The notes beneath the pieces are model-generated. The model saw only the letters and a list, made by a program, of their open reading frames with translations. It was not told the origin of the DNA and ran no database searches. A stretch of DNA of 63,510 nucleotides, filler included, from Collodictyon triciliatum (Eukaryota): NCBI GenBank assembly GCA_043381765.1. It is 57 parts of 57 records of this genome, joined end to end, with 100 filler letters (N's around TTAATTAATTAA, not from the genome) between each part and the next. Parts side by side here need not be neighbours in the genome. Positions count along the whole stretch, not along the records: positions 11,199 to 12,217 come from JBHJMP010012687.1; 56 more parts are not named here. One strand, given 5' to 3'. A program made the translations under genes and the position numbers. This document shows, piece by piece, positions 5,896 through 60,860 of the stretch (position 1 is the stretch's first letter; each line of letters opens with the position of its first letter).

Positions 5896-5967
5896 GCGGG
5901 TGTAGCTCAGTGGTAGAGCGTTCGACTGCAGATCGAATGGTCGCCGGTTCAATTCCGGTCGCTCGCT
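5896..5967 (+). tRNA. tRNA-Cys(GCA)
   Basis: Full cloverleaf: acceptor GCGGGTG/CGCTCGC, D arm GCTC/GAGC, anticodon stem TTCGA/TCGAA with loop CTGCAGA, T loop TTCAATT, discriminator U. Followed by a TTTTT Pol III terminator. Confidence 0.97.
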
Positions 5968-9979: not shown

Positions 9980-11006
9980 NNNNNNNNNNNNNNNNNNNNN
10001 NNNNNNNNNNNNNNNNNNNNNNNTTAATTAATTAANNNNNNNNNNNNNNNNNNNNNNNNNNNNNNNNNNNNNNNNNNNNTATATCCGTGTTTTATGTCCG
10101 TGTTTTATGTCCGTGTTTTATGTCCGTGTTTTATGTCCGTGTTTTATGTCCGTGTTTTATGTCCGTGTTTTATGTCCGTGTTAAATGTGTTTGAAAAAGG
10201 ACAAGGTCGACAAATTGGATGGAAAGGAAAAGGAATCAACGAGAAGAGAGTATCTTTGACGCATGGATAAGCAGAATGTTGGCACAACCTTTTCTCGAAG
10301 GGTTAGTTTAGTGTTGGCGATGTTGTGGTGTGTTCATCGTTTGCCCATCACGAAAATGTCGTGCGCGATGTGATGCTAGAAAAAAAAAATTCGAATAAAA
10401 GCCTACATCACCCTGCATGATGGCGGAAGAGCGAGTCAAGTTAAGAAAAAATCCACCACAGCCCATGTATCCGGCAATGTCCATTAATTCATGGCTCTTT
10501 GGTGCAACGCGATATAATCGCTTGTGGAACCGCATAGTTATATTCGACAAAGTACCTCTCCTCGCAAAAACCTTTGGCCAGGAAGCGAGCCGGGGGATAC
10601 TACTTCAACTGTCCCGATGAAATACTCCTGCTATCGCCGCAATATGAGACATATCCAAAACATGCAGATATAACGCCGGCCGCGGGCTCTTTCGCCTGTG
10701 CCTTTTGTTGGGCAAATCTATATATGGCATCATAAACTTTTAAATAACCCAATGAACTCTTCCATAATTTATACATTTGTGGAAAATATGAAATATATTA
10801 ATTTATAATCCATAATGATTCCTTTACAACCTGAAAAGCACTAAAATAGCAATATATATATATATTAGAAGATTCTACATTGATCGAACAAGCTGGGTTT
10901 TCCTTCCTGTTCGCCGCAGAACAAATAAATGCTGCACAGTTGGATACTTTGCACATGAGAAAAAAAAAAGAAAAAAAAGAAAAAAAAGAAAAAAAAGAAA
11001 AAAAAG

Positions 11007-11098
<92 letters not shown>

Positions 11099-11198
11099 NN
11101 NNNNNNNNNNNNNNNNNNNNNNNNNNNNNNNNNNNNNNNNNNTTAATTAATTAANNNNNNNNNNNNNNNNNNNNNNNNNNNNNNNNNNNNNNNNNNNN

Positions 11199-11468
11199 TT
11201 CCAAGGAAGCACAAGCACACAAGTTCTGCACAAGTCGTCTTCTCTGAAAAATCCGCCGGCCTTTGCGGGATATTTAATGTCGTCTTGTCGAAATCCTCAC
11301 TTTTTTTTTATTCACAAAGTACTTTCTGATCTCCGTGTGCACAACCCCACCATCCTGACTCGAGTAATTCTGTCTGTGTGATTGTCAAGTCCACTCAAAA
11401 AAAAATAAATGATGTGTATTGTATTGACACCCAGCCAGTCCACATATACACAGACGGAATCTGTCCAG
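11199..11468 (+). promoter_or_regulatory. Conserved upstream block of the variable LRR family (promoter/5' UTR, possibly with a UTR intron)
   Basis: Near-identical to 13042-13321(-) and 59905-60177(-). Indels in its T-run argue against coding. Function is inferred from position only. Confidence 0.55.
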
Positions 11469-12217
11469 ATGTCTGACCACCTCACACCTGCCCAAGTGGA
11501 TGCACTGATGGAAGAAGTCCGGAAAATCTCTGGTGATGGCTATGGGAGATCATTTGCTGATATTGCCACTCTGAAAGGATCCACATCTCTGAGTCTCTAT
11601 GGCAGGAAACTGTCATCTGTGCCGCCTGGTGTTTTCTTGTTGACTGGTCTGAAAGTATTGGGTCTTGGTAGAAATCTGTTGTCATCGCTACCTGCACAAA
11701 TATCGTGTTTGACTGGTCTCAGTGTTCTTTCTGTTCGTGGCAATCAGCTGTCATCACTACCTGCACAAATATCGTGTTTGACTGGTCTCACAGCATTGAG
11801 TCTTGAAGGCAATCAGTTGTCATCACTACCTGCACAAATATCGTGTTTGACTGGTCTCAGTATACTTGGTGTTCATGTAAATCCGGTATGTTTTTATTCA
11901 TATATTATATTACTATTATGTTTAAAAGAAAATGACTGACAACGATACACGCAGATGGAGGAGCTTCCAGCACAGATCACAGCGCTCACAAATCTGAAAG
12001 AACTCTGTATAAATCTTGGAAACCCACAAACCATAAAGAGAGCCCCTCGTGGCATCTCAAATCTCCCCTGCTGGAGTAACACAGGACACGGTGACTACAA
12101 ACACATCCGCGCTCTGCAGCTCTACGACCCCGTAAGCACACATCCACCCCCAACCCCCACATACACAACACAGGACACAACTAACATAACCCTAGGTCGA
12201 TACCGCAGCTGAAGAAG
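11469..12217 (+). CDS. Variable LRR family protein, copy A (exons 11469-11885, 11955-12131, 12196->12217; 3' truncated)
   Basis: 23-aa LRRs LxxLxLxxNxLSSLPAQISCLTG. GT-AG introns with ACTGAC/ACTAAC branch points join NP|MEELP and YDP|VDTAAEE in frame. Confidence 0.9.
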
Positions 12218-12439
12218 NNNNNNNNNNNNNNNNNNNNNNNNNNNNNNNNNNNNNNNNNNNNTTAATTAATTAANNNNNNNNNNNNNNNNNNNNNNNNNNN
12301 NNNNNNNNNNNNNNNNNTCAGGAGATCTGCGTAGTTGCCGCGGGCTAGGCGGCTGGTTGGGGCTGCGTAGATGCCGGACTGGATGTTGGGACTGGCTGCA
12401 ACCTGTGTAAGTGGAGTGTTTGGGTGTCAGGTAAGTCTG

Positions 12440-32574: not shown

Positions 32575-33290
32575 AAGCTGGAGATAATCACGAACCCCGC
32601 AAGTCCTTCCAAATCACCGCTCTCTAATGCTTAGCATCACCAATAGGGAGCTATGAATAGGCACACGCGCGGCAAAAGCTGGCAAAGTCTCCCAACAATG
32701 CACACTTTGCAGCAACGGTGATGAATCCATTGAGCACAGATTTGTGCAATGTCCCTTCGCTCAAAACCTGCGCGAAACAGCCGGTGAGATTCTCCGACTG
32801 ACACTCAAGACGACTGCAGCTGTTTGTTCAATCCAGGCGATATTTGGGCCTCGTCAACAGCTGCGTCCAGATGCAAAAACATTCTGGGCAGTGACGGGAG
32901 GCCATTTGCTCTGGATTATGTGGATAGCATGCATATACTCACGCAAAGCAAGACTCAACAACCAGCCACCCATTCCTGATAACAGGCTGGATGACATCAT
33001 ACAAATATATTTTCTCAACCGTTTCCTTCCCCACCTGCACGTTCTCTACTGCTCGACCCCGTGAGAAGAGATATGTGGAAAGAAGCAGAGAAAGATTTTA
33101 AACCTCGCCTTGTCTCTCTCATGCAAGCACAAGACCTAGGCTACACGCCAAACTGCAGGATGCAACTCCTGATTACCGACTACTTCTCTGCCACTCCGCC
33201 ACCAAGTAGCGTCCATGCAAACGATGGCTAGCGAGCCAAGGTCGATACATTCACCGTTCTTGAGCTATTGAAAGATACAATAAAAAAAAA
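32575..33290 (+). mobile_element. L1/Tx1-like LINE 3' part: zinc finger, ORF2 C-terminus, 3' UTR, poly(A); decayed (copy 4)
   Basis: EL*IG...QCTLCSNGDESIEHRFVQC, then a frameshift, then MWKEAEKDFKPRLVSLMQAQDLGYTPNCRMQLLITDYFSATPPPSSVHANDG*, AATAAA and an A-run. This copy links the short repeat to the LINE. Confidence 0.88.
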
Positions 33291-39339: not shown

Positions 39340-39567
39340 AGCGAACGAGACTCTCGCGAAGAAATCTTGAAAGCTTTCCGTTTATTCGACGATGATGAGA
39401 CTGGGAAGATCAGTTTTAAAAATCTAAAGCGTGTGGCCAAGGAACTGGGTGAGAACTTGACAGATGAGGAGCTGCAGGAAATGATTGATGAGGCCGACCG
39501 GGATGGAGACGGAGAAATCAGCGAAGAAGAATTCCTCCGCATCATGAAGAAAACAAGTCTTTATTAA
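39340..39567 (+). CDS. CETN: Centrin (caltractin), last exon with EF-hands 3-4
   Basis: [74 protein letters not shown]. Confidence 0.97.
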
Positions 39568-53607: not shown

Positions 53608-53960
53608 ACCTGGAGAAAGCATACGACTATGTGAACCACGAAGCACTGGAAACCATCCTACACAAAAGAGGCTTCTGTACCGGATTCACCAGTCTTATCA
53701 AGAAATTGCACGACAATGCAACAGCAAGGGTACTCACGGCACACGGACCTACGGATGCAATTCAAAGACAGAGCGGGGTGTATCAAGGCTGCCCACTTGC
53801 GCCACTGCTCTTCAACTTTGTTGCTGACTGCCTTGCAAACCACTTCTGAAACGAAAACAAGGTACGCAACCAACTGCTACTTCAATATGCAGACGACACA
53901 GCATTCATCTTGCGGTCTCCCGAAGGCGCCACAGTCACTAGGACTGACTTTTTGTTGGTA
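53608..53960 (+). mobile_element. Non-LTR retrotransposon reverse transcriptase fragment, decayed
   Basis: LEKAYDYVNH...GVYQGCPLAPLLFN...QYADD (YADD at 53886-53897). In-frame TGA at 53847-53849. Confidence 0.93.
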
Positions 53961-59166: not shown

Positions 59167-59904
59167 AGCTCTTTTAGCTTCTTCAGCTTTTTTAGCTTCT
59201 TCAGCTCTTTTAGCTTCTTCAGCTTTTCTAGCTTCTTCAGCTTTTCTGGCTTCTTCAGCTTTTTTAGCCTCTTCAGCTTTTTTAGCCTCTTCAGCTTTTT
59301 TAGCTTCAGCTGCGGTATCGACCTAGGGTTATGTTAGTTGTGTCCTGTGTTGTGTATGTGGGGTTTGGGGGTGGATGTGTGCTTACGGGGTCGTAGAGCT
59401 GCAGAGCGCGGATGTGTTTATAGTCTGCGTTCTCTGTGTTATTCCAGCAGGGGAGATTTGAGATGCCACGCGGGGCTCTCTTTATGTTTACTTTACCACT
59501 CCCATCTACCATGTCAAGTTTCTGTAGATTTGTGAGCGCTGTGATCTGTGCTGGAAGCTCCTCCATCTGCGTGTATCGTTGTCAGTCATTTTTCTTTTAA
59601 ACATAAATAGTAATATAATATATGAATAAAAACATACCGGATTGTTATAAACATAAAGTTCTATGAGACCAGTCAAACACGATATTTGTACAGGTAGTGA
59701 TGACAGCTTATTGCCACCAAGACTTAATCCTTTCAGACCAGTCAACAGAAAAACACCAGGCGGCACAGATATCAGATTCTTGCCATAGAGATTCAGATAT
59801 GTGGAGCTTTTCAGAGTGGCAATATCAGCAATTGGATAGAAAGAGAGTTTCCGGACTTCTTCCAAAAGCGCTTCCACTTGGGCAGGTGTGAGATAGTCGG
59901 ACAT
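59167..59904 (-). CDS. Variable LRR family protein, copy C (exons 59904-59638, 59566-59387, 59322->59167; 3' truncated)
   Basis: Same structure as copies A and B. Exon 3 reads VDTAAEAKKAEEAKKAEEAKKAEEARKAEE..., an 18-bp repeat. Confidence 0.9.
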
Positions 59905-60860
59905 CTGGACAGATTCCGTCTGTATATATGGATAGACTGACTGGGTGTCAATACAATACACATCATTTATTTGTTTTATGAGTGGACTTCACAATCACAC
60001 AGGACAGATTAACTCGAGTCAGGATGGTAGGGTTGTGCACACGGAGATCTGAAAGTACTTTGTGAACAAGAAAAAGAAGCAAGGATTTCGACAAGACGAC
60101 ATTAAATATCCCGCAAAGGCCGGCGAATTTTTCCGAGAAGACGACTTGTGCAGAACTTGTGTGCTTGTGCTTCCTTGNNNNNNNNNNNNNNNNNNNNNNN
60201 NNNNNNNNNNNNNNNNNNNNNTTAATTAATTAANNNNNNNNNNNNNNNNNNNNNNNNNNNNNNNNNNNNNNNNNNNNTTCTCATTCTTTCTCATTCTTTC
60301 TCATTCTTTCTCATTCTTTCTCATTCTTTCTCATTCTTTCTCATTCTTTCTCATTCTTTCTCATTCTTTCTCATTCACTCACTCTCTTTCTCATTCTCTC
60401 ACTCTCTCATTCTTTCTCATTCTTTCTCATTCTTTCTCATTCTTTCTCTTTCTTTCCCTTTCTTTCCCTTTCTTTCTCTTTCTTTCCCATTCTTTCTCTT
60501 TCTCTTTCTTTTTCTTTTTCTTTTTCTTTTTCTTTCTTTCTTTCTCTTTCTTTTTCTTTCTTTCTTTCTCTTTCTTTTTCTTTCTCATTCTTTCTCATTT
60601 TTCTTTATTGCGATATTTTCTTGTTCTCCTGAGAAACTCAATCAAACACTATTTCTTACAAGTAACAGATACTGCCAGTTCATTCCATCGAGCCCAGCTC
60701 GCATTTCCTTGCACACCCTCATTGTTTTTAGTCACACAGCATCTACTTCCTCACCAGCCTTCTATTACTTTCGTTCACACACACATCACTCTGCTCATAG
60801 TAGTACCCTACCCACCGATCAGCCATAAGCTCACCGCTTTTCCCACCCGGACCCGCCACG

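What the first reader, a model, noticed from the sequence alone, without database searches (positions are those of the whole stretch)
11571..11885. Variable LRR codons are NNT/NNC: first two bases randomised, third fixed (DGR-like signature)
Seen: across the 11 exon-1 modules of the three copies, motif position 5 ends in T in 11/11 (AGT,GGT,TCT,AGT,GGT; TAT,GTT,ACT; AAT,AGT,TAT). Position 7 ends in T in 10/11 (TAT,GGT,CGT,GAA,CAT; CGT,CAT,TTT; TAT,GGT,TAT). Position 8 ends in C in 8/11. Bases 1-2 vary widely. Known: prokaryotic diversity-generating retroelements give this pattern by adenine mutagenesis of AAY template codons. Inference: this could reflect targeted template-driven mutagenesis, which would be remarkable in a eukaryote. 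Strong positive selection on young duplicates gives the same pattern and is the more conservative explanation. The indel and non-A changes in exon 2 of copy C favour selection. No template repeat or DGR-type RT is in this window.
Basis: partly seen in the sequence, partly recalled or inferred. Interest (0 to 1): 0.7.

Follow-up and report, generated by a model that had tools for sequence, protein, structure and literature searches.

The report
Fast-evolving LRR gene family, no DGR
Three scattered copies of a small leucine-rich-repeat gene differ almost only at the residues lining the binding surface, which is the usual mark of strong diversifying selection in a young gene family and not of a template-driven mutator.

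Summary
The codon counts are correct: position 5 ends in T in 11 of 11 modules, position 7 in 10 of 11, and position 8 ends in C in 8 of 11. Three caveats apply.

- **The copies are not neighbours.** The window is 57 unrelated ~1 kb contigs joined by N/TTAATTAATTAA linkers.
- **The third base is not specially fixed.** Between copies, synonymous divergence is the same in variable codons (dS 0.10-0.21) and framework codons (0.10-0.16). Non-synonymous divergence is 7-37 times higher in the variable codons (dN 0.60-2.65 against 0.07-0.09).
- **The rule does not cover all variable codons.** Positions 2 and 3 also vary at base 3. Other family members in public runs carry CAA, GAA, GAC and TCA at position 5.

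Adenine-specific mutagenesis is contradicted. Third-base A is kept where bases 1-2 vary (GTA/CGA/GGA). Eleven A columns, five of them silent, never vary. The cores fall into three lineages with different silent states.

The best reading is a large, expressed, germline family of small LRR proteins. It evolves by diversifying selection on the concave face, together with module duplication and gene conversion. This is a new member of a known kind. No template or DGR-type RT was found, but no genome was available to search.

The parts
11199..12217 (+). Copy A: one whole unplaced contig carrying upstream region, exon 1, intron 1, exon 2, intron 2 and the first 9 bases of exon 3
   Evidence: Contig borders. 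Alignment to B and C. Gene model.
11469..11885 (+). Copy A exon 1 (139 aa): N-terminal helix plus five LRR modules. The finding's range 11571-11885 lies inside it.
   Evidence: Translation. Pfam LRR_8 E 5.8e-13. AlphaFold2 mean pLDDT 90.1, with strands at LRR positions 3-5. LRR fold matches in the PDB.
11580..11606 (+). A module 1 core (irregular first repeat)
11649..11675 (+). A module 2 core
11718..11744 (+). A module 3 core (extra module, absent from B and C)
11787..11813 (+). A module 4 core (extra module, absent from B and C). Its silent states at positions 4 and 6 are of the module-2 type.
11856..11882 (+). A module 5 core (last of exon 1)
11688..11858 (+). Three 69-base units whose 33-base framework is identical letter for letter (11688-11720, 11757-11789, 11826-11858)
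   Evidence: 0 mismatches in all three. family D1, spacing 69.
11886..11954 (+). Intron 1 (69 nt, GT..AG)
   Evidence: A contig of run X2 joins 11884 to 11954, skipping 69 bases with GT..AG ends (table 5).
11955..12131 (+). Copy A exon 2 (59 aa): a last LRR-like unit with its own variable patch (about 11994-12032) and a conserved tail. It matches no Pfam family.
12132..12208 (+). Intron 2 (77 nt, GT..AG), inferred only
   Evidence: No joint was seen.
12318..13336 (-). Copy B: a whole contig. Exon 1 is 12778-13041 (88 aa, three modules, a different N-terminus) and exon 2 is 12531-12707. Cores are at 12919-12945, 12850-12876 and 12781-12807.
59167..60177 (-). Copy C: a whole contig. Exon 1 is 59638-59904 (89 aa, three modules) and exon 2 is 59387-59566 (60 aa). 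Cores are at 59779-59805, 59710-59736 and 59641-59667. Exon 3 is a low-complexity repeat from 59309 downward.
59486..59527 (-). Replaced patch in exon 2 of copy C. It has one extra codon and silent changes in its conserved Leu/Gly codons, and sits between introns that are nearly identical to A.
   Evidence: Codon lists. Intron counts.

Best explanation
These are three germline members of a large, expressed multigene family in a freshwater eukaryote. Each encodes a small LRR protein with no visible signal peptide. The 69-base LRR units share an almost invariant framework. They differ at the five x positions of the LxxLxLxxN core (positions 2, 3, 5, 7, 8), which lie on and just after the beta-strand of the concave face.

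The NNT/NNC pattern arises as follows. The copies are young, so silent sites, including the third bases of variable codons, have hardly changed. Meanwhile amino-acid-changing point substitutions at the binding-face codons have been fixed many times faster, by diversifying selection.

Two further processes add variation: unequal crossing-over between the identical frameworks, which changes module number, and short-tract gene conversion between family members.

Shown: the divergence pattern, the fold, splicing of intron 1, and the family's size in RNA runs. Inferred: selection as the cause, a role in ligand binding or recognition, and the recombination mechanisms.
For: 1. **Site classes between copies.**
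   - Bases 1+2 of the 15 variable codons differ in 23/30 (A-B), 13/30 (A-C) and 22/30 (B-C).
   - Their third bases differ in 3/15, 3/15 and 2/15.
   - The 49 framework codons differ in 6/98, 9/98 and 9/98 at bases 1+2, and in 5/49, 5/49 and 6/49 at base 3.
   - Upstream differences are 16/243, 15/242 and 25/246. Introns 1+2 together give 6/146, 1/146 and 7/147.
2. **Nei-Gojobori.**
   - Variable codons: dS 0.10/0.17/0.21 and dN 2.65/0.60/1.35.
   - Framework codons: dS 0.10/0.14/0.16 and dN 0.07/0.09/0.09.
3. **Fisher tests.**
   - Silent differences, variable against framework codons: p = 1, 0.64, 0.65.
   - Non-synonymous differences, variable against framework codons: p = 4e-14, 3e-5, 7e-10.
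   - N against S within the variable codons: p = 0.00024 and 0.032 for two pairs.
4. **Structure.** The AlphaFold2 model (pLDDT 90.1) places strands at residues 40-42, 63-65, 86-88, 109-111 and 132-134. These are LRR positions 3-5. Foldseek matches SHOC2, Rsu1, Leptospira LRR proteins and lamprey VLRs.
5. **Descent, not redrawing.** A and C share their N-terminus, their introns and most variable bases of modules 1-2 (5/20 differ), while A-B differ in 14/20. Third-base A is kept where bases 1-2 vary (GTA/CGA/GGA; ACA/GCA/ACA). Cores keep module-specific silent states at positions 1, 4 and 6.
6. **Family size and expression.** 129 contigs of run X1 and 178 of run X2 lie on copy A. Among them are exon 1-exon 2 junctions carrying at least seven other last-module cores.
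7. **Repeat-number difference.** A has 5 modules, B and C have 3, and the frameworks are letter-identical for 33 bases.
Against: - The sample is small: three copies, 15 variable codons, and only about 10 synonymous sites in them. The dS of variable codons rests on 1-2 differences.
- The N-against-S test is not significant for A-C (p = 0.29).
- To compare copies I dropped A's modules 3-4 (46 codons) and paired A's last module with the last module of B and C. That pairing is an assumption.
- I fixed the variable set (positions 2, 3, 5, 7, 8) from the textbook xxLxLxx rule, but after I had seen the data.
- Between paralogous internal units the variable codons also differ more at silent sites (pS 0.435 against 0.124). 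The cores may therefore be older than the frameworks around them. That points to concerted evolution of the framework and not only to youth.
- Introns are more alike than silent exon sites for A-C (1/146 against 6/42, p = 0.0005). Plain divergence does not explain this.
- Selection is inferred from sequence alone. There are no population, clonal or functional data.
- The contigs are short-read sized and could be chimeric across the identical frameworks.
Confidence: 0.8

Rival explanations
1. Template-driven mutagenic homing, as in diversity-generating retroelements. An A-rich template module (AAT/AAC at the variable codons) is reverse-transcribed with errors at adenines and copied into the LRR modules.
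For: - Positions 5, 7 and 8 follow NNT/NNT/NNC in the window: 11/11, 10/11 and 8/11.
- The frameworks flanking the cores are identical for 33 bases and could serve as homing arms.
- Gly is always GGT at positions 5 and 7 and always GGC at position 8 in the window.
Against: - Third-base A is kept while bases 1-2 vary (GTA/CGA/GGA; ACA/GCA/ACA).
- 11 of 66 columns of the five internal units are invariant A, five of them silent third positions.
- The Asn codon AAT is intact in 8 of 8 regular modules.
- The variable bases are G-rich: 27 of 66 are G and 20 are A.
- Three core lineages differ in silent states at non-variable positions, so one template cannot fit.
- CAA, GAA, TCA and GAC occur at position 5 in other members.
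- The copies are separate loci with their own indels, N-termini and module numbers.
- There is no inverted repeat downstream of the LRR region.
- The only RT pieces are LINE-like and lie on unrelated contigs.
- A published screen found no DGR in eukaryotes (PMC3575424, passages read).
Confidence: 0.02
2. Programmed cassette exchange. Cores are swapped by copy-choice or gene conversion between the identical frameworks at a high, possibly somatic, rate, as in lamprey VLR assembly or as proposed for brown-alga LRR exon shuffling.
For: - The frameworks are identical for 33 bases.
- Module number is 5 against 3.
- A's module 4 carries module-2-type silent states.
- Exon 2 of copy C holds a wholesale-replaced patch between near-identical introns.
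- Many different cores are joined to the same exon 2 in RNA contigs.
- pS between paralogous cores is 0.435 against 0.124 in the frameworks.
Against: - Every copy is a complete gene, with conserved upstream region, start codon and introns. None is a bare cassette.
- Between A and C most variable codons of modules 1-2 differ by single bases. That looks like point substitution, not swapping.
- Nothing here shows somatic change. Ordinary germline gene conversion explains the mosaics.
Confidence: 0.06
3. Relaxed constraint only. The exposed positions are simply free to drift, while gene conversion keeps everything else uniform. There is no positive selection.
For: - Framework and introns are kept very uniform.
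- The N-against-S test is not significant for A-C (p = 0.29).
Against: - Neutral sites cannot evolve faster than silent sites. Yet dN of the variable codons (0.60-2.65) exceeds their own dS (0.10-0.21) and the framework dS (0.10-0.16) in all three pairs.
- Conversion tracts cannot spare bases 1-2 while homogenising base 3 of the same codon.
Confidence: 0.08
4. Assembly or sequencing artefact: collapsed or chimeric short-read contigs of a repeat.
For: - The contigs are ~1 kb, unplaced, and contain exact repeats of 33 bases.
Against: - The differences respect codons and LRR positions and keep the frame open.
- The same architecture, with further cores, is seen in independent RNA and DNA runs.
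Confidence: 0.02

Closest known systems
Hypervariable xxLxLxx positions of plant resistance-gene LRRs (NLR and receptor-like proteins)
   Same: The solvent-exposed x residues of the LRR beta-strand evolve under diversifying selection, with repeat-number change and exchange between paralogues. This is described in the introduction of PMC3341825 (passages read). PMC3113787, PMC6771003 and PMC3510248 were seen only as search listings.
   Different: Here the proteins are very small: 3-5 modules in exon 1 plus one in exon 2. The contigs show no NB-ARC, kinase or transmembrane part. The framework repeats are far more uniform. The host is an unidentified freshwater eukaryote.
Highly internally conserved (HIC) WD40/ANK/TPR repeats of fungal NLRs, e.g. 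the Podospora HNWD family
   Same: The repeats are nearly identical to each other. A handful of codons per repeat is hypervariable and positively selected on the binding surface. There is repeat-number polymorphism, with shuffling within and between genes (PMC4986451, passages read).
   Different: That paper reports no LRR motifs in fungal NLRs. No NOD/STAND domain is seen on these contigs. Whether this organism is a fungus is unresolved.
Ectocarpus ROCO LRR and NB-ARC-TPR families (exon shuffling)
   Same: This is a protist LRR family whose positively selected sites lie on the concave face. It was proposed as an immune repertoire (PMC3341825, passages read).
   Different: There each repeat is its own exon and shuffling is exon-based. 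Here three to five modules share one exon and no ROC-COR domain is seen.
Lamprey and hagfish variable lymphocyte receptors
   Same: Small LRR proteins with hypervariable concave faces. They are structural neighbours of the model (3g39, 3g3a, 2o6s).
   Different: By my recollection, plus one passage in PMC3341825, VLRs are assembled somatically from cassettes into an incomplete germline gene and are secreted or membrane-anchored. Here each copy is a complete intron-containing gene without a visible signal peptide.
Diversity-generating retroelements
   Same: NNY-type codon variation at chosen positions of a binding protein.
   Different: DGRs mutate only template adenines, need a nearby template repeat and RT, and were found only in bacteria and phages in the screen read (PMC3575424). 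Here adenines beside the variable bases are stable, and no template or DGR-type RT was found.
SHOC2 / Ras-suppressor-1 type cytosolic LRR proteins
   Same: They share the same 23-residue LRR type and fold. Foldseek gives 7tvg and 7lt8 with probability 1.00 and TMq 0.72-0.73. Sequence hits are to Roco-type and other bacterial LRRs at 24-57% identity.
   Different: Those are conserved single-copy scaffolds, not hypervariable families.

Membership tests
Diversity-generating retroelement (DGR) | A template repeat close to the variable region, differing from it only at template adenines | tested here: inconclusive
Only the three gene contigs hold family sequence. However, the contigs are 1 kb long and no genome is held.
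Diversity-generating retroelement (DGR) | A DGR-clade reverse transcriptase beside the target | tested here: inconclusive
   I scanned 165 of the 171 ORFs of at least 70 aa that passed my low-complexity filter. The other six are the LRR gene ORFs, covered. One RVT_1 fragment was found (53610-53846). Its best PDB matches are R2 and LINE-1 RTs at E about 1e-8. Two zf-RVT tails were also found. All lie on unrelated contigs.
Diversity-generating retroelement (DGR) | Variation confined to adenine-templated sites, with silent templated adenines varying too | tested here: not met
   Third-base A is kept in GTA/CGA/GGA and ACA/GCA/ACA. 11 of 66 columns are invariant A, 5 of them silent. AAT is intact in 8/8 regular modules.
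Diversity-generating retroelement (DGR) | Non-adenine positions of the variable region copy one template | tested here: not met
   Three core lineages have different silent states at positions 1, 4 and 6: TCC..CTG..CTC, CTG..TTG..CTT and CTC..CTT..GTT.
Diversity-generating retroelement (DGR) | A GC-rich homing element and hairpin at the 3' end of the variable region (feature recalled, not from a call) | tested here: not met
   The only inverted repeat on contig A is a 13-base palindrome upstream, at 11312-11329.
Diversity-generating retroelement (DGR) | Prokaryotic or phage host | tested here: not met
   The gene has GT..AG introns, one of them confirmed by a spliced contig. A published screen found none in eukaryotes (PMC3575424).
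Leucine-rich repeat proteins (Pfam LRR_8 / LRR_4) | LxxLxLxxN repeats forming a solenoid with a parallel beta-sheet | tested here: met
   LRR_8 E 5.8e-13 (A), 6e-11 (B) and 4.2e-7 (C). The model has pLDDT 90.1 with one strand per repeat. PDB LRR matches have probability 1.00.
LRR receptors under diversifying selection (xxLxLxx hypervariability) | dN above dS at the exposed x positions, and not elsewhere | tested here: met
   For the variable codons dN/dS is about 26, 3.5 and 6.4; for the framework it is 0.55-0.72. The result is significant in two of three pairs. The sample is small.
Highly internally conserved repeats with concerted evolution (as in fungal NLRs) | Near-identical repeat units, repeat-number polymorphism and a few hypervariable codons per unit | tested here: met
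   Framework differences among the five internal units are 18/340 (bases 1+2) and 12/170 (base 3). Three frameworks are identical over 33 bases. Module number is 5 against 3.
NLR / STAND receptors | A NACHT or NB-ARC nucleotide-binding domain in the same protein | tested here: not met
   There is no such domain in exon 1 or exon 2. Exon 3 is a low-complexity repeat, or ends after 8 codons in B. The contigs end there, so the full protein is unknown.
VLR-type somatic cassette assembly | An incomplete germline gene plus cassettes lacking start codon and introns, with somatic assembly | tested here: not met
   All three copies have the conserved upstream region, a start codon and both introns. Somatic change itself is not testable with these tools.

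The most novel reading that the evidence does not exclude
The cores are diversified by a programmed process and not by ordinary mutation and selection. One route is high-rate copy-choice or gene conversion between the 33-base identical frameworks, possibly somatic. The other is template-driven rewriting. Either would give a freshwater eukaryote a VLR- or DGR-like repertoire generator built on small cytosolic LRR proteins.
Probability: 0.05. Interest if true: 0.9.

Novelty: new member of a known kind. Interest (0 to 1): 0.3.

Why it matters
A DGR-like mutator in a eukaryote would be a first. The evidence here speaks against it, so that claim should not be carried forward.

What remains is a large, expressed family of very small LRR proteins. 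Their binding-face codons evolve about 4-26 times faster than their own silent sites, inside almost invariant repeat frameworks. This is the LRR counterpart of the highly conserved repeats of fungal NLRs and of plant R-gene LRRs. It is a reasonable candidate for a recognition or immune repertoire in an understudied freshwater eukaryote.

The case also shows that an 'NNT' pattern follows automatically whenever dN is much greater than dS in young paralogues.

Tried and rejected
- **Whole genome.** None is held. A genome-wide search for a template or an RT was therefore impossible.
- **Earlier findings of the scan.** Nothing by place or by sequence.
- **Protein database.**
  - Exon 1, lengths 76-244 aa: 89 hits among 923 candidates, all generic LRRs at 24-57% identity.
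  - Exon 1, lengths 30-75 aa: 2 weak hits.
  - Exon 2 against longer proteins: 6 candidates, none scored.
  - No family member was found, so the amino-acid test on a large sample (absence of K/E/Q/M/W at positions 5 and 7) could not be done.
- **JGI metagenome contigs.** Two conserved patterns, 24 and 22 bases, gave 0 hits each.
- **Public runs.**
  - No run holds half or more of the sampled words; the best share is 0.19.
  - The holders are mostly freshwater, lake or aquaculture metagenomes from 17 studies, plus two organism-labelled runs.
  - Such small shares show family relatives, not this locus. I draw no conclusion about habitat beyond 'relatives occur there'.
- **Laid contigs.**
  - Parts of the stretch without cover, and the lack of a joint for intron 2, carry no weight.
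  - The substitution tallies (reference A 39, C 31, G 37, T 32 places in X1) cannot test a DGR, because the reference is itself a variable copy.
- **ESM Atlas.** With exon 1 it returned only generic bacterial LRR clusters. With a ketoacyl-synthase fragment on another contig it returned fungal- and oomycete-type clusters. The organism stays unresolved.
- **Rfam.** Only one tRNA, elsewhere in the window.
- **Literature search for the linker string.** It did not identify the assembly.
- **RIP-like or deaminase-like mutation.** Rejected by eye: the variable codons differ by transversions as often as by transitions.
Full report
**What the window is.** The 63,510 bases are not one stretch of chromosome. 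They are 57 contigs of 1011-1020 bases, roughly sorted by length.
- A = 11199-12217 (+)
- B = 12318-13336 (-)
- C = 59167-60177 (-)

Their closeness in the window says nothing about linkage. A tblastn and blastn of copy A against all 57 contigs finds family sequence on these three only. No whole genome is held.

**The gene.** All three contigs align end to end. Each carries:
- about 270 bases of conserved upstream sequence;
- exon 1: A 11469-11885 (139 aa), B 12778-13041 (88 aa), C 59638-59904 (89 aa);
- a 69-71 base GT..AG intron;
- exon 2 (59-60 aa);
- a 77-base GT..AG intron and the start of a third exon.

Intron 1 is confirmed. A contig of run X2 skips exactly 69 bases with GT..AG ends. 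Seven further contigs of X1 and X2 join other last-module cores directly to exon 2 (tables 5 and 5c; sides are 20-53 letters, so with some caution).

Exon 1 matches Pfam LRR_8 (E 5.8e-13, 6e-11 and 4.2e-7). Exon 2 matches no family.

An AlphaFold2 model of A's exon 1 has mean pLDDT 90.1. It shows an N-terminal helix and five repeats, each with a short strand (40-42, 63-65, 86-88, 109-111, 132-134). These strands are positions 3-5 of the LxxLxLxxN core. Foldseek places it with SHOC2, Ras suppressor-1, Leptospira LRR proteins and lamprey VLRs.

Copy A has five modules in exon 1, and B and C have three. In A, three successive 69-base units share a 33-base framework without a single mismatch.

**The observation.** Position 5 ends in T in 11/11 modules, position 7 in T in 10/11, and position 8 in C in 8/11.

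Against the third-base usage of the other 454 codons of these genes (T 0.30, A 0.25, G 0.225, C 0.225) the binomial probabilities are 1.8e-6, 4.7e-5 and 5.6e-4. Codon bias therefore does not explain the pattern.

The modules are relatives, however, so the proper null is shared descent. Under that null the pattern is expected.
- Between the copies, third bases of the 15 variable codons (positions 2, 3, 5, 7, 8 of three modules) differ in 3/15, 3/15 and 2/15.
- Framework third bases differ in 5/49, 5/49 and 6/49.
- Upstream sequence differs in 16/243, 15/242 and 25/246.

By Nei-Gojobori, dS is 0.10/0.17/0.21 in variable codons and 0.10/0.14/0.16 in framework codons. The Fisher tests give p = 1, 0.64 and 0.65. 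So the third base is not 'fixed'. It is an ordinary silent site in young paralogues.

What is extraordinary is bases 1 and 2.
- They differ in 23/30, 13/30 and 22/30, against 6/98, 9/98 and 9/98 in the framework.
- dN is 2.65/0.60/1.35 against 0.07/0.09/0.09.
- The variable-against-framework tests give p = 4e-14, 3e-5 and 7e-10.
- Within the variable codons, non-synonymous exceeds synonymous change significantly for A-B (p = 0.00024) and B-C (0.032), but not for A-C (0.29).
- The silent-site figures for variable codons rest on about 10 sites and 1-2 differences.
- For these comparisons I left out A's modules 3-4 (46 codons) and paired last module with last module.

**Limits of the NNT/NNC rule.** The rule holds for positions 5 and 7 and partly for position 8. 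It does not hold for the other hypervariable codons.
- Position 3, with 9 different residues in 11 modules, has third bases T 4, A 6, G 1. Position 2 has A 9, T 2.
- Among the five internal units, third bases of variable codons differ in 23/50 pairwise cells (pos 2 6/10, pos 3 7/10, pos 5 0/10, pos 7 4/10, pos 8 6/10). Framework third bases differ in 12/170.
- I read further cores by hand from the joints and loose ends and dropped one duplicate.
  - Position 5: GAT, TAT, TTT, TAT, GAT, GAT, CAA, GAA, GAC, TCA (6/10 T).
  - Position 7: 8/13 T.
  - Position 8: 9/13 C.
- These contigs may come from other strains or species, and some are close relatives of each other.
- CAA and GAA at position 5, and GAA at position 7, encode residues that NNY cannot.

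**Tests of the DGR-like reading.** A DGR mutates template adenines only and sits beside its target (PMC3575424, passages read). Several results contradict that here.
- Third-position A is retained while bases 1-2 vary: module 2, position 3 is GTA/CGA/GGA, and module 1, position 2 is ACA/GCA/ACA.
- In the five internal units, 11 of 66 columns are invariant A. Five of these are silent third positions in the framework that abuts the core.
- The Asn codon AAT is intact in 8/8 regular modules.
- Bases 1-2 of positions 5, 7 and 8 are A 20, G 27, T 12, C 7 of 66. The commonest state is G, with Gly codons prominent, and not A.
- The cores fall into three lineages with their own silent states at the non-variable positions 1, 4 and 6. 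Each lineage is conserved across A, B and C according to its place in the gene. A's extra module 4 is a hybrid of the module-2 type. One template cannot account for this.
- A, B and C are separate loci. They have their own indels in non-coding DNA, two different N-termini, different module numbers and different third exons.
- No inverted repeat follows the LRR region.
- I scanned 165 of the 171 ORFs of at least 70 aa that passed a low-complexity filter. The six others are the LRR genes themselves, scanned. The only reverse-transcriptase pieces are two zf-RVT tails (16321-16689 and 32657-33061) and one RVT_1 fragment with an internal stop (53610-53846).
- That RVT_1 fragment best matches R2 and LINE-1 RTs in the PDB, at E about 1e-8. 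All these pieces are on unrelated contigs.
- The absence of a template or DGR RT in 57 random kilobases proves little. The positive contradictions above carry the weight.

**Descent and mosaicism.** Variable-site similarity follows local genealogy.
- A and C share the N-terminus, have nearly identical introns (1/146 differences), and differ at only 5/20 variable bases in modules 1-2. Most of those are single-base steps.
- A-B differ at 14/20.

The history is nevertheless mosaic.
- In exon 2, A and B are close. C carries a replaced patch (about 59486-59527) with an extra codon and silent changes in its conserved Leu and Gly codons. That patch lies between introns almost identical to A's.
- For A-C, introns are more alike than silent exon sites (1/146 against 6/42, p = 0.0005).
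- Between paralogous units, the cores are more diverged at silent sites than the frameworks (pS 0.435 against 0.124).

Together with the 5-versus-3 module difference, this indicates unequal crossing-over and short-tract gene conversion that keep frameworks and introns uniform.

**Family size and spread.** Runs X1 and X2 are two organism-labelled runs of one study. They are probably RNA, given the spliced joints. They yield 129 and 178 contigs on copy A at 80% likeness or more. Two freshwater metagenomes yield 11 and 4.

No run holds half or more of the sampled words of this copy. The best share is 0.19, and the holders come from 17 studies. No family member is in the protein collection or in JGI metagenome contigs. 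The organism is not identified. It is a eukaryote with spliceosomal introns and LINE-like elements.

**Comparison with known systems.**
- The pattern matches the hypervariable xxLxLxx residues of plant resistance-gene LRRs.
- In its near-identical repeats with a few selected codons and repeat-number polymorphism, it also matches the highly internally conserved WD/ANK/TPR repeats of fungal NLRs. That paper notes that no LRR motifs were found in fungal NLRs (PMC4986451, passages read).
- The Ectocarpus ROCO LRR family is a protist parallel, but there each repeat is its own exon (PMC3341825, passages read).
- VLRs are structural neighbours, but they are assembled from cassettes. Here each copy is a complete gene.
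- Membership in the DGR class fails on four tested features and is inconclusive on two.

**Verdict.**
- The counts are right.
- The 'third base fixed' signature is the automatic by-product of very high dN with low dS in young paralogues.
- The DGR-like reading is not supported.
- The best explanation is a germline, expressed LRR multigene family under strong diversifying selection on its concave face, with module duplication and gene conversion (confidence 0.8).
- A programmed diversification mechanism is not excluded, because neither a genome nor clonal data could be examined (about 0.05).
- Interest is modest, at 0.3.

Noticed in passing
whole window; linkers e.g. 11099-11198, 12218-12317: The window is a chain of 57 contigs of 1011-1020 bases. 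They are joined by N44-TTAATTAATTAA-N44 and roughly sorted by length. Adjacency of features on different contigs therefore means nothing.
   Followed up: yes
12778-13041 (-) and 12318-12453 (-), copy B: Copy B starts with a different N-terminus. Its first residues, MGNTLS, resemble an N-myristoylation signal (motif recalled, not tested). Its intron 2 ends in AAG where A and C have CAG. In phase 0 its third exon stops after 8 codons. B may be a short or decaying member.
   Followed up: partly
59167-59309 (-), copy C exon 3: A low-complexity repeat follows intron 2. It is open in two frames. In phase 0 it reads as a Leu-Lys-Lys type repeat; in another frame it reads as Ala/Glu/Lys-rich. A metagenome contig continues copy A with a similar repeat (loose end at 12214). 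The true frame and the C-terminus are unknown.
   Followed up: partly
11886-11954 and 12132-12208, with their counterparts in B and C: Introns are more conserved than silent exon sites between A and C (1/146 against 6/42, p = 0.0005). This suggests recent conversion of the 3' half or constraint on the introns.
   Followed up: partly
53610-53846 (+), contig 49: A reverse-transcriptase fragment (Pfam RVT_1, 28.4 bits, just under the cut-off). It has an in-frame stop before its YADD motif. Its best PDB matches are R2 and LINE-1 RTs, so it is a decayed non-LTR retrotransposon.
   Followed up: yes
16321-16689 (+) and 32657-33061 (+): Two ORFs carry the zinc-binding tail of LINE-type reverse transcriptases (zf-RVT).
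   Followed up: partly
45918-46325 (+) and 46601-46825 (+), contig 42: Fragments of a beta-ketoacyl synthase. Their nearest Atlas clusters are fungal or oomycete-like (score 0.96; Pfam ketoacyl-synt E 4.4e-4). This is a weak hint to the kind of organism.
   Followed up: partly
20620-20868 (+); 39340-39564 (+); 22655-22924 (+); 24962-25630 (+); 5896-5967 (+): Other gene fragments lie on separate contigs: a Myb DNA-binding domain, an EF-hand pair, an ion-transport pore segment, cadherin-like/Big_9 repeats, and one tRNA.
   Followed up: no
1121-2140, contig 2: This contig has 61% G+C against 30-46% for the others. It is full of low-complexity repeats. It may be a different genomic compartment or foreign DNA.
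   Followed up: no
10950-11098 and many contig ends: Many contigs end in long homopolymer or microsatellite runs (poly-A with GAAAAAAAA units, CA/GA repeats). This probably explains why the assembly broke there.
   Followed up: no
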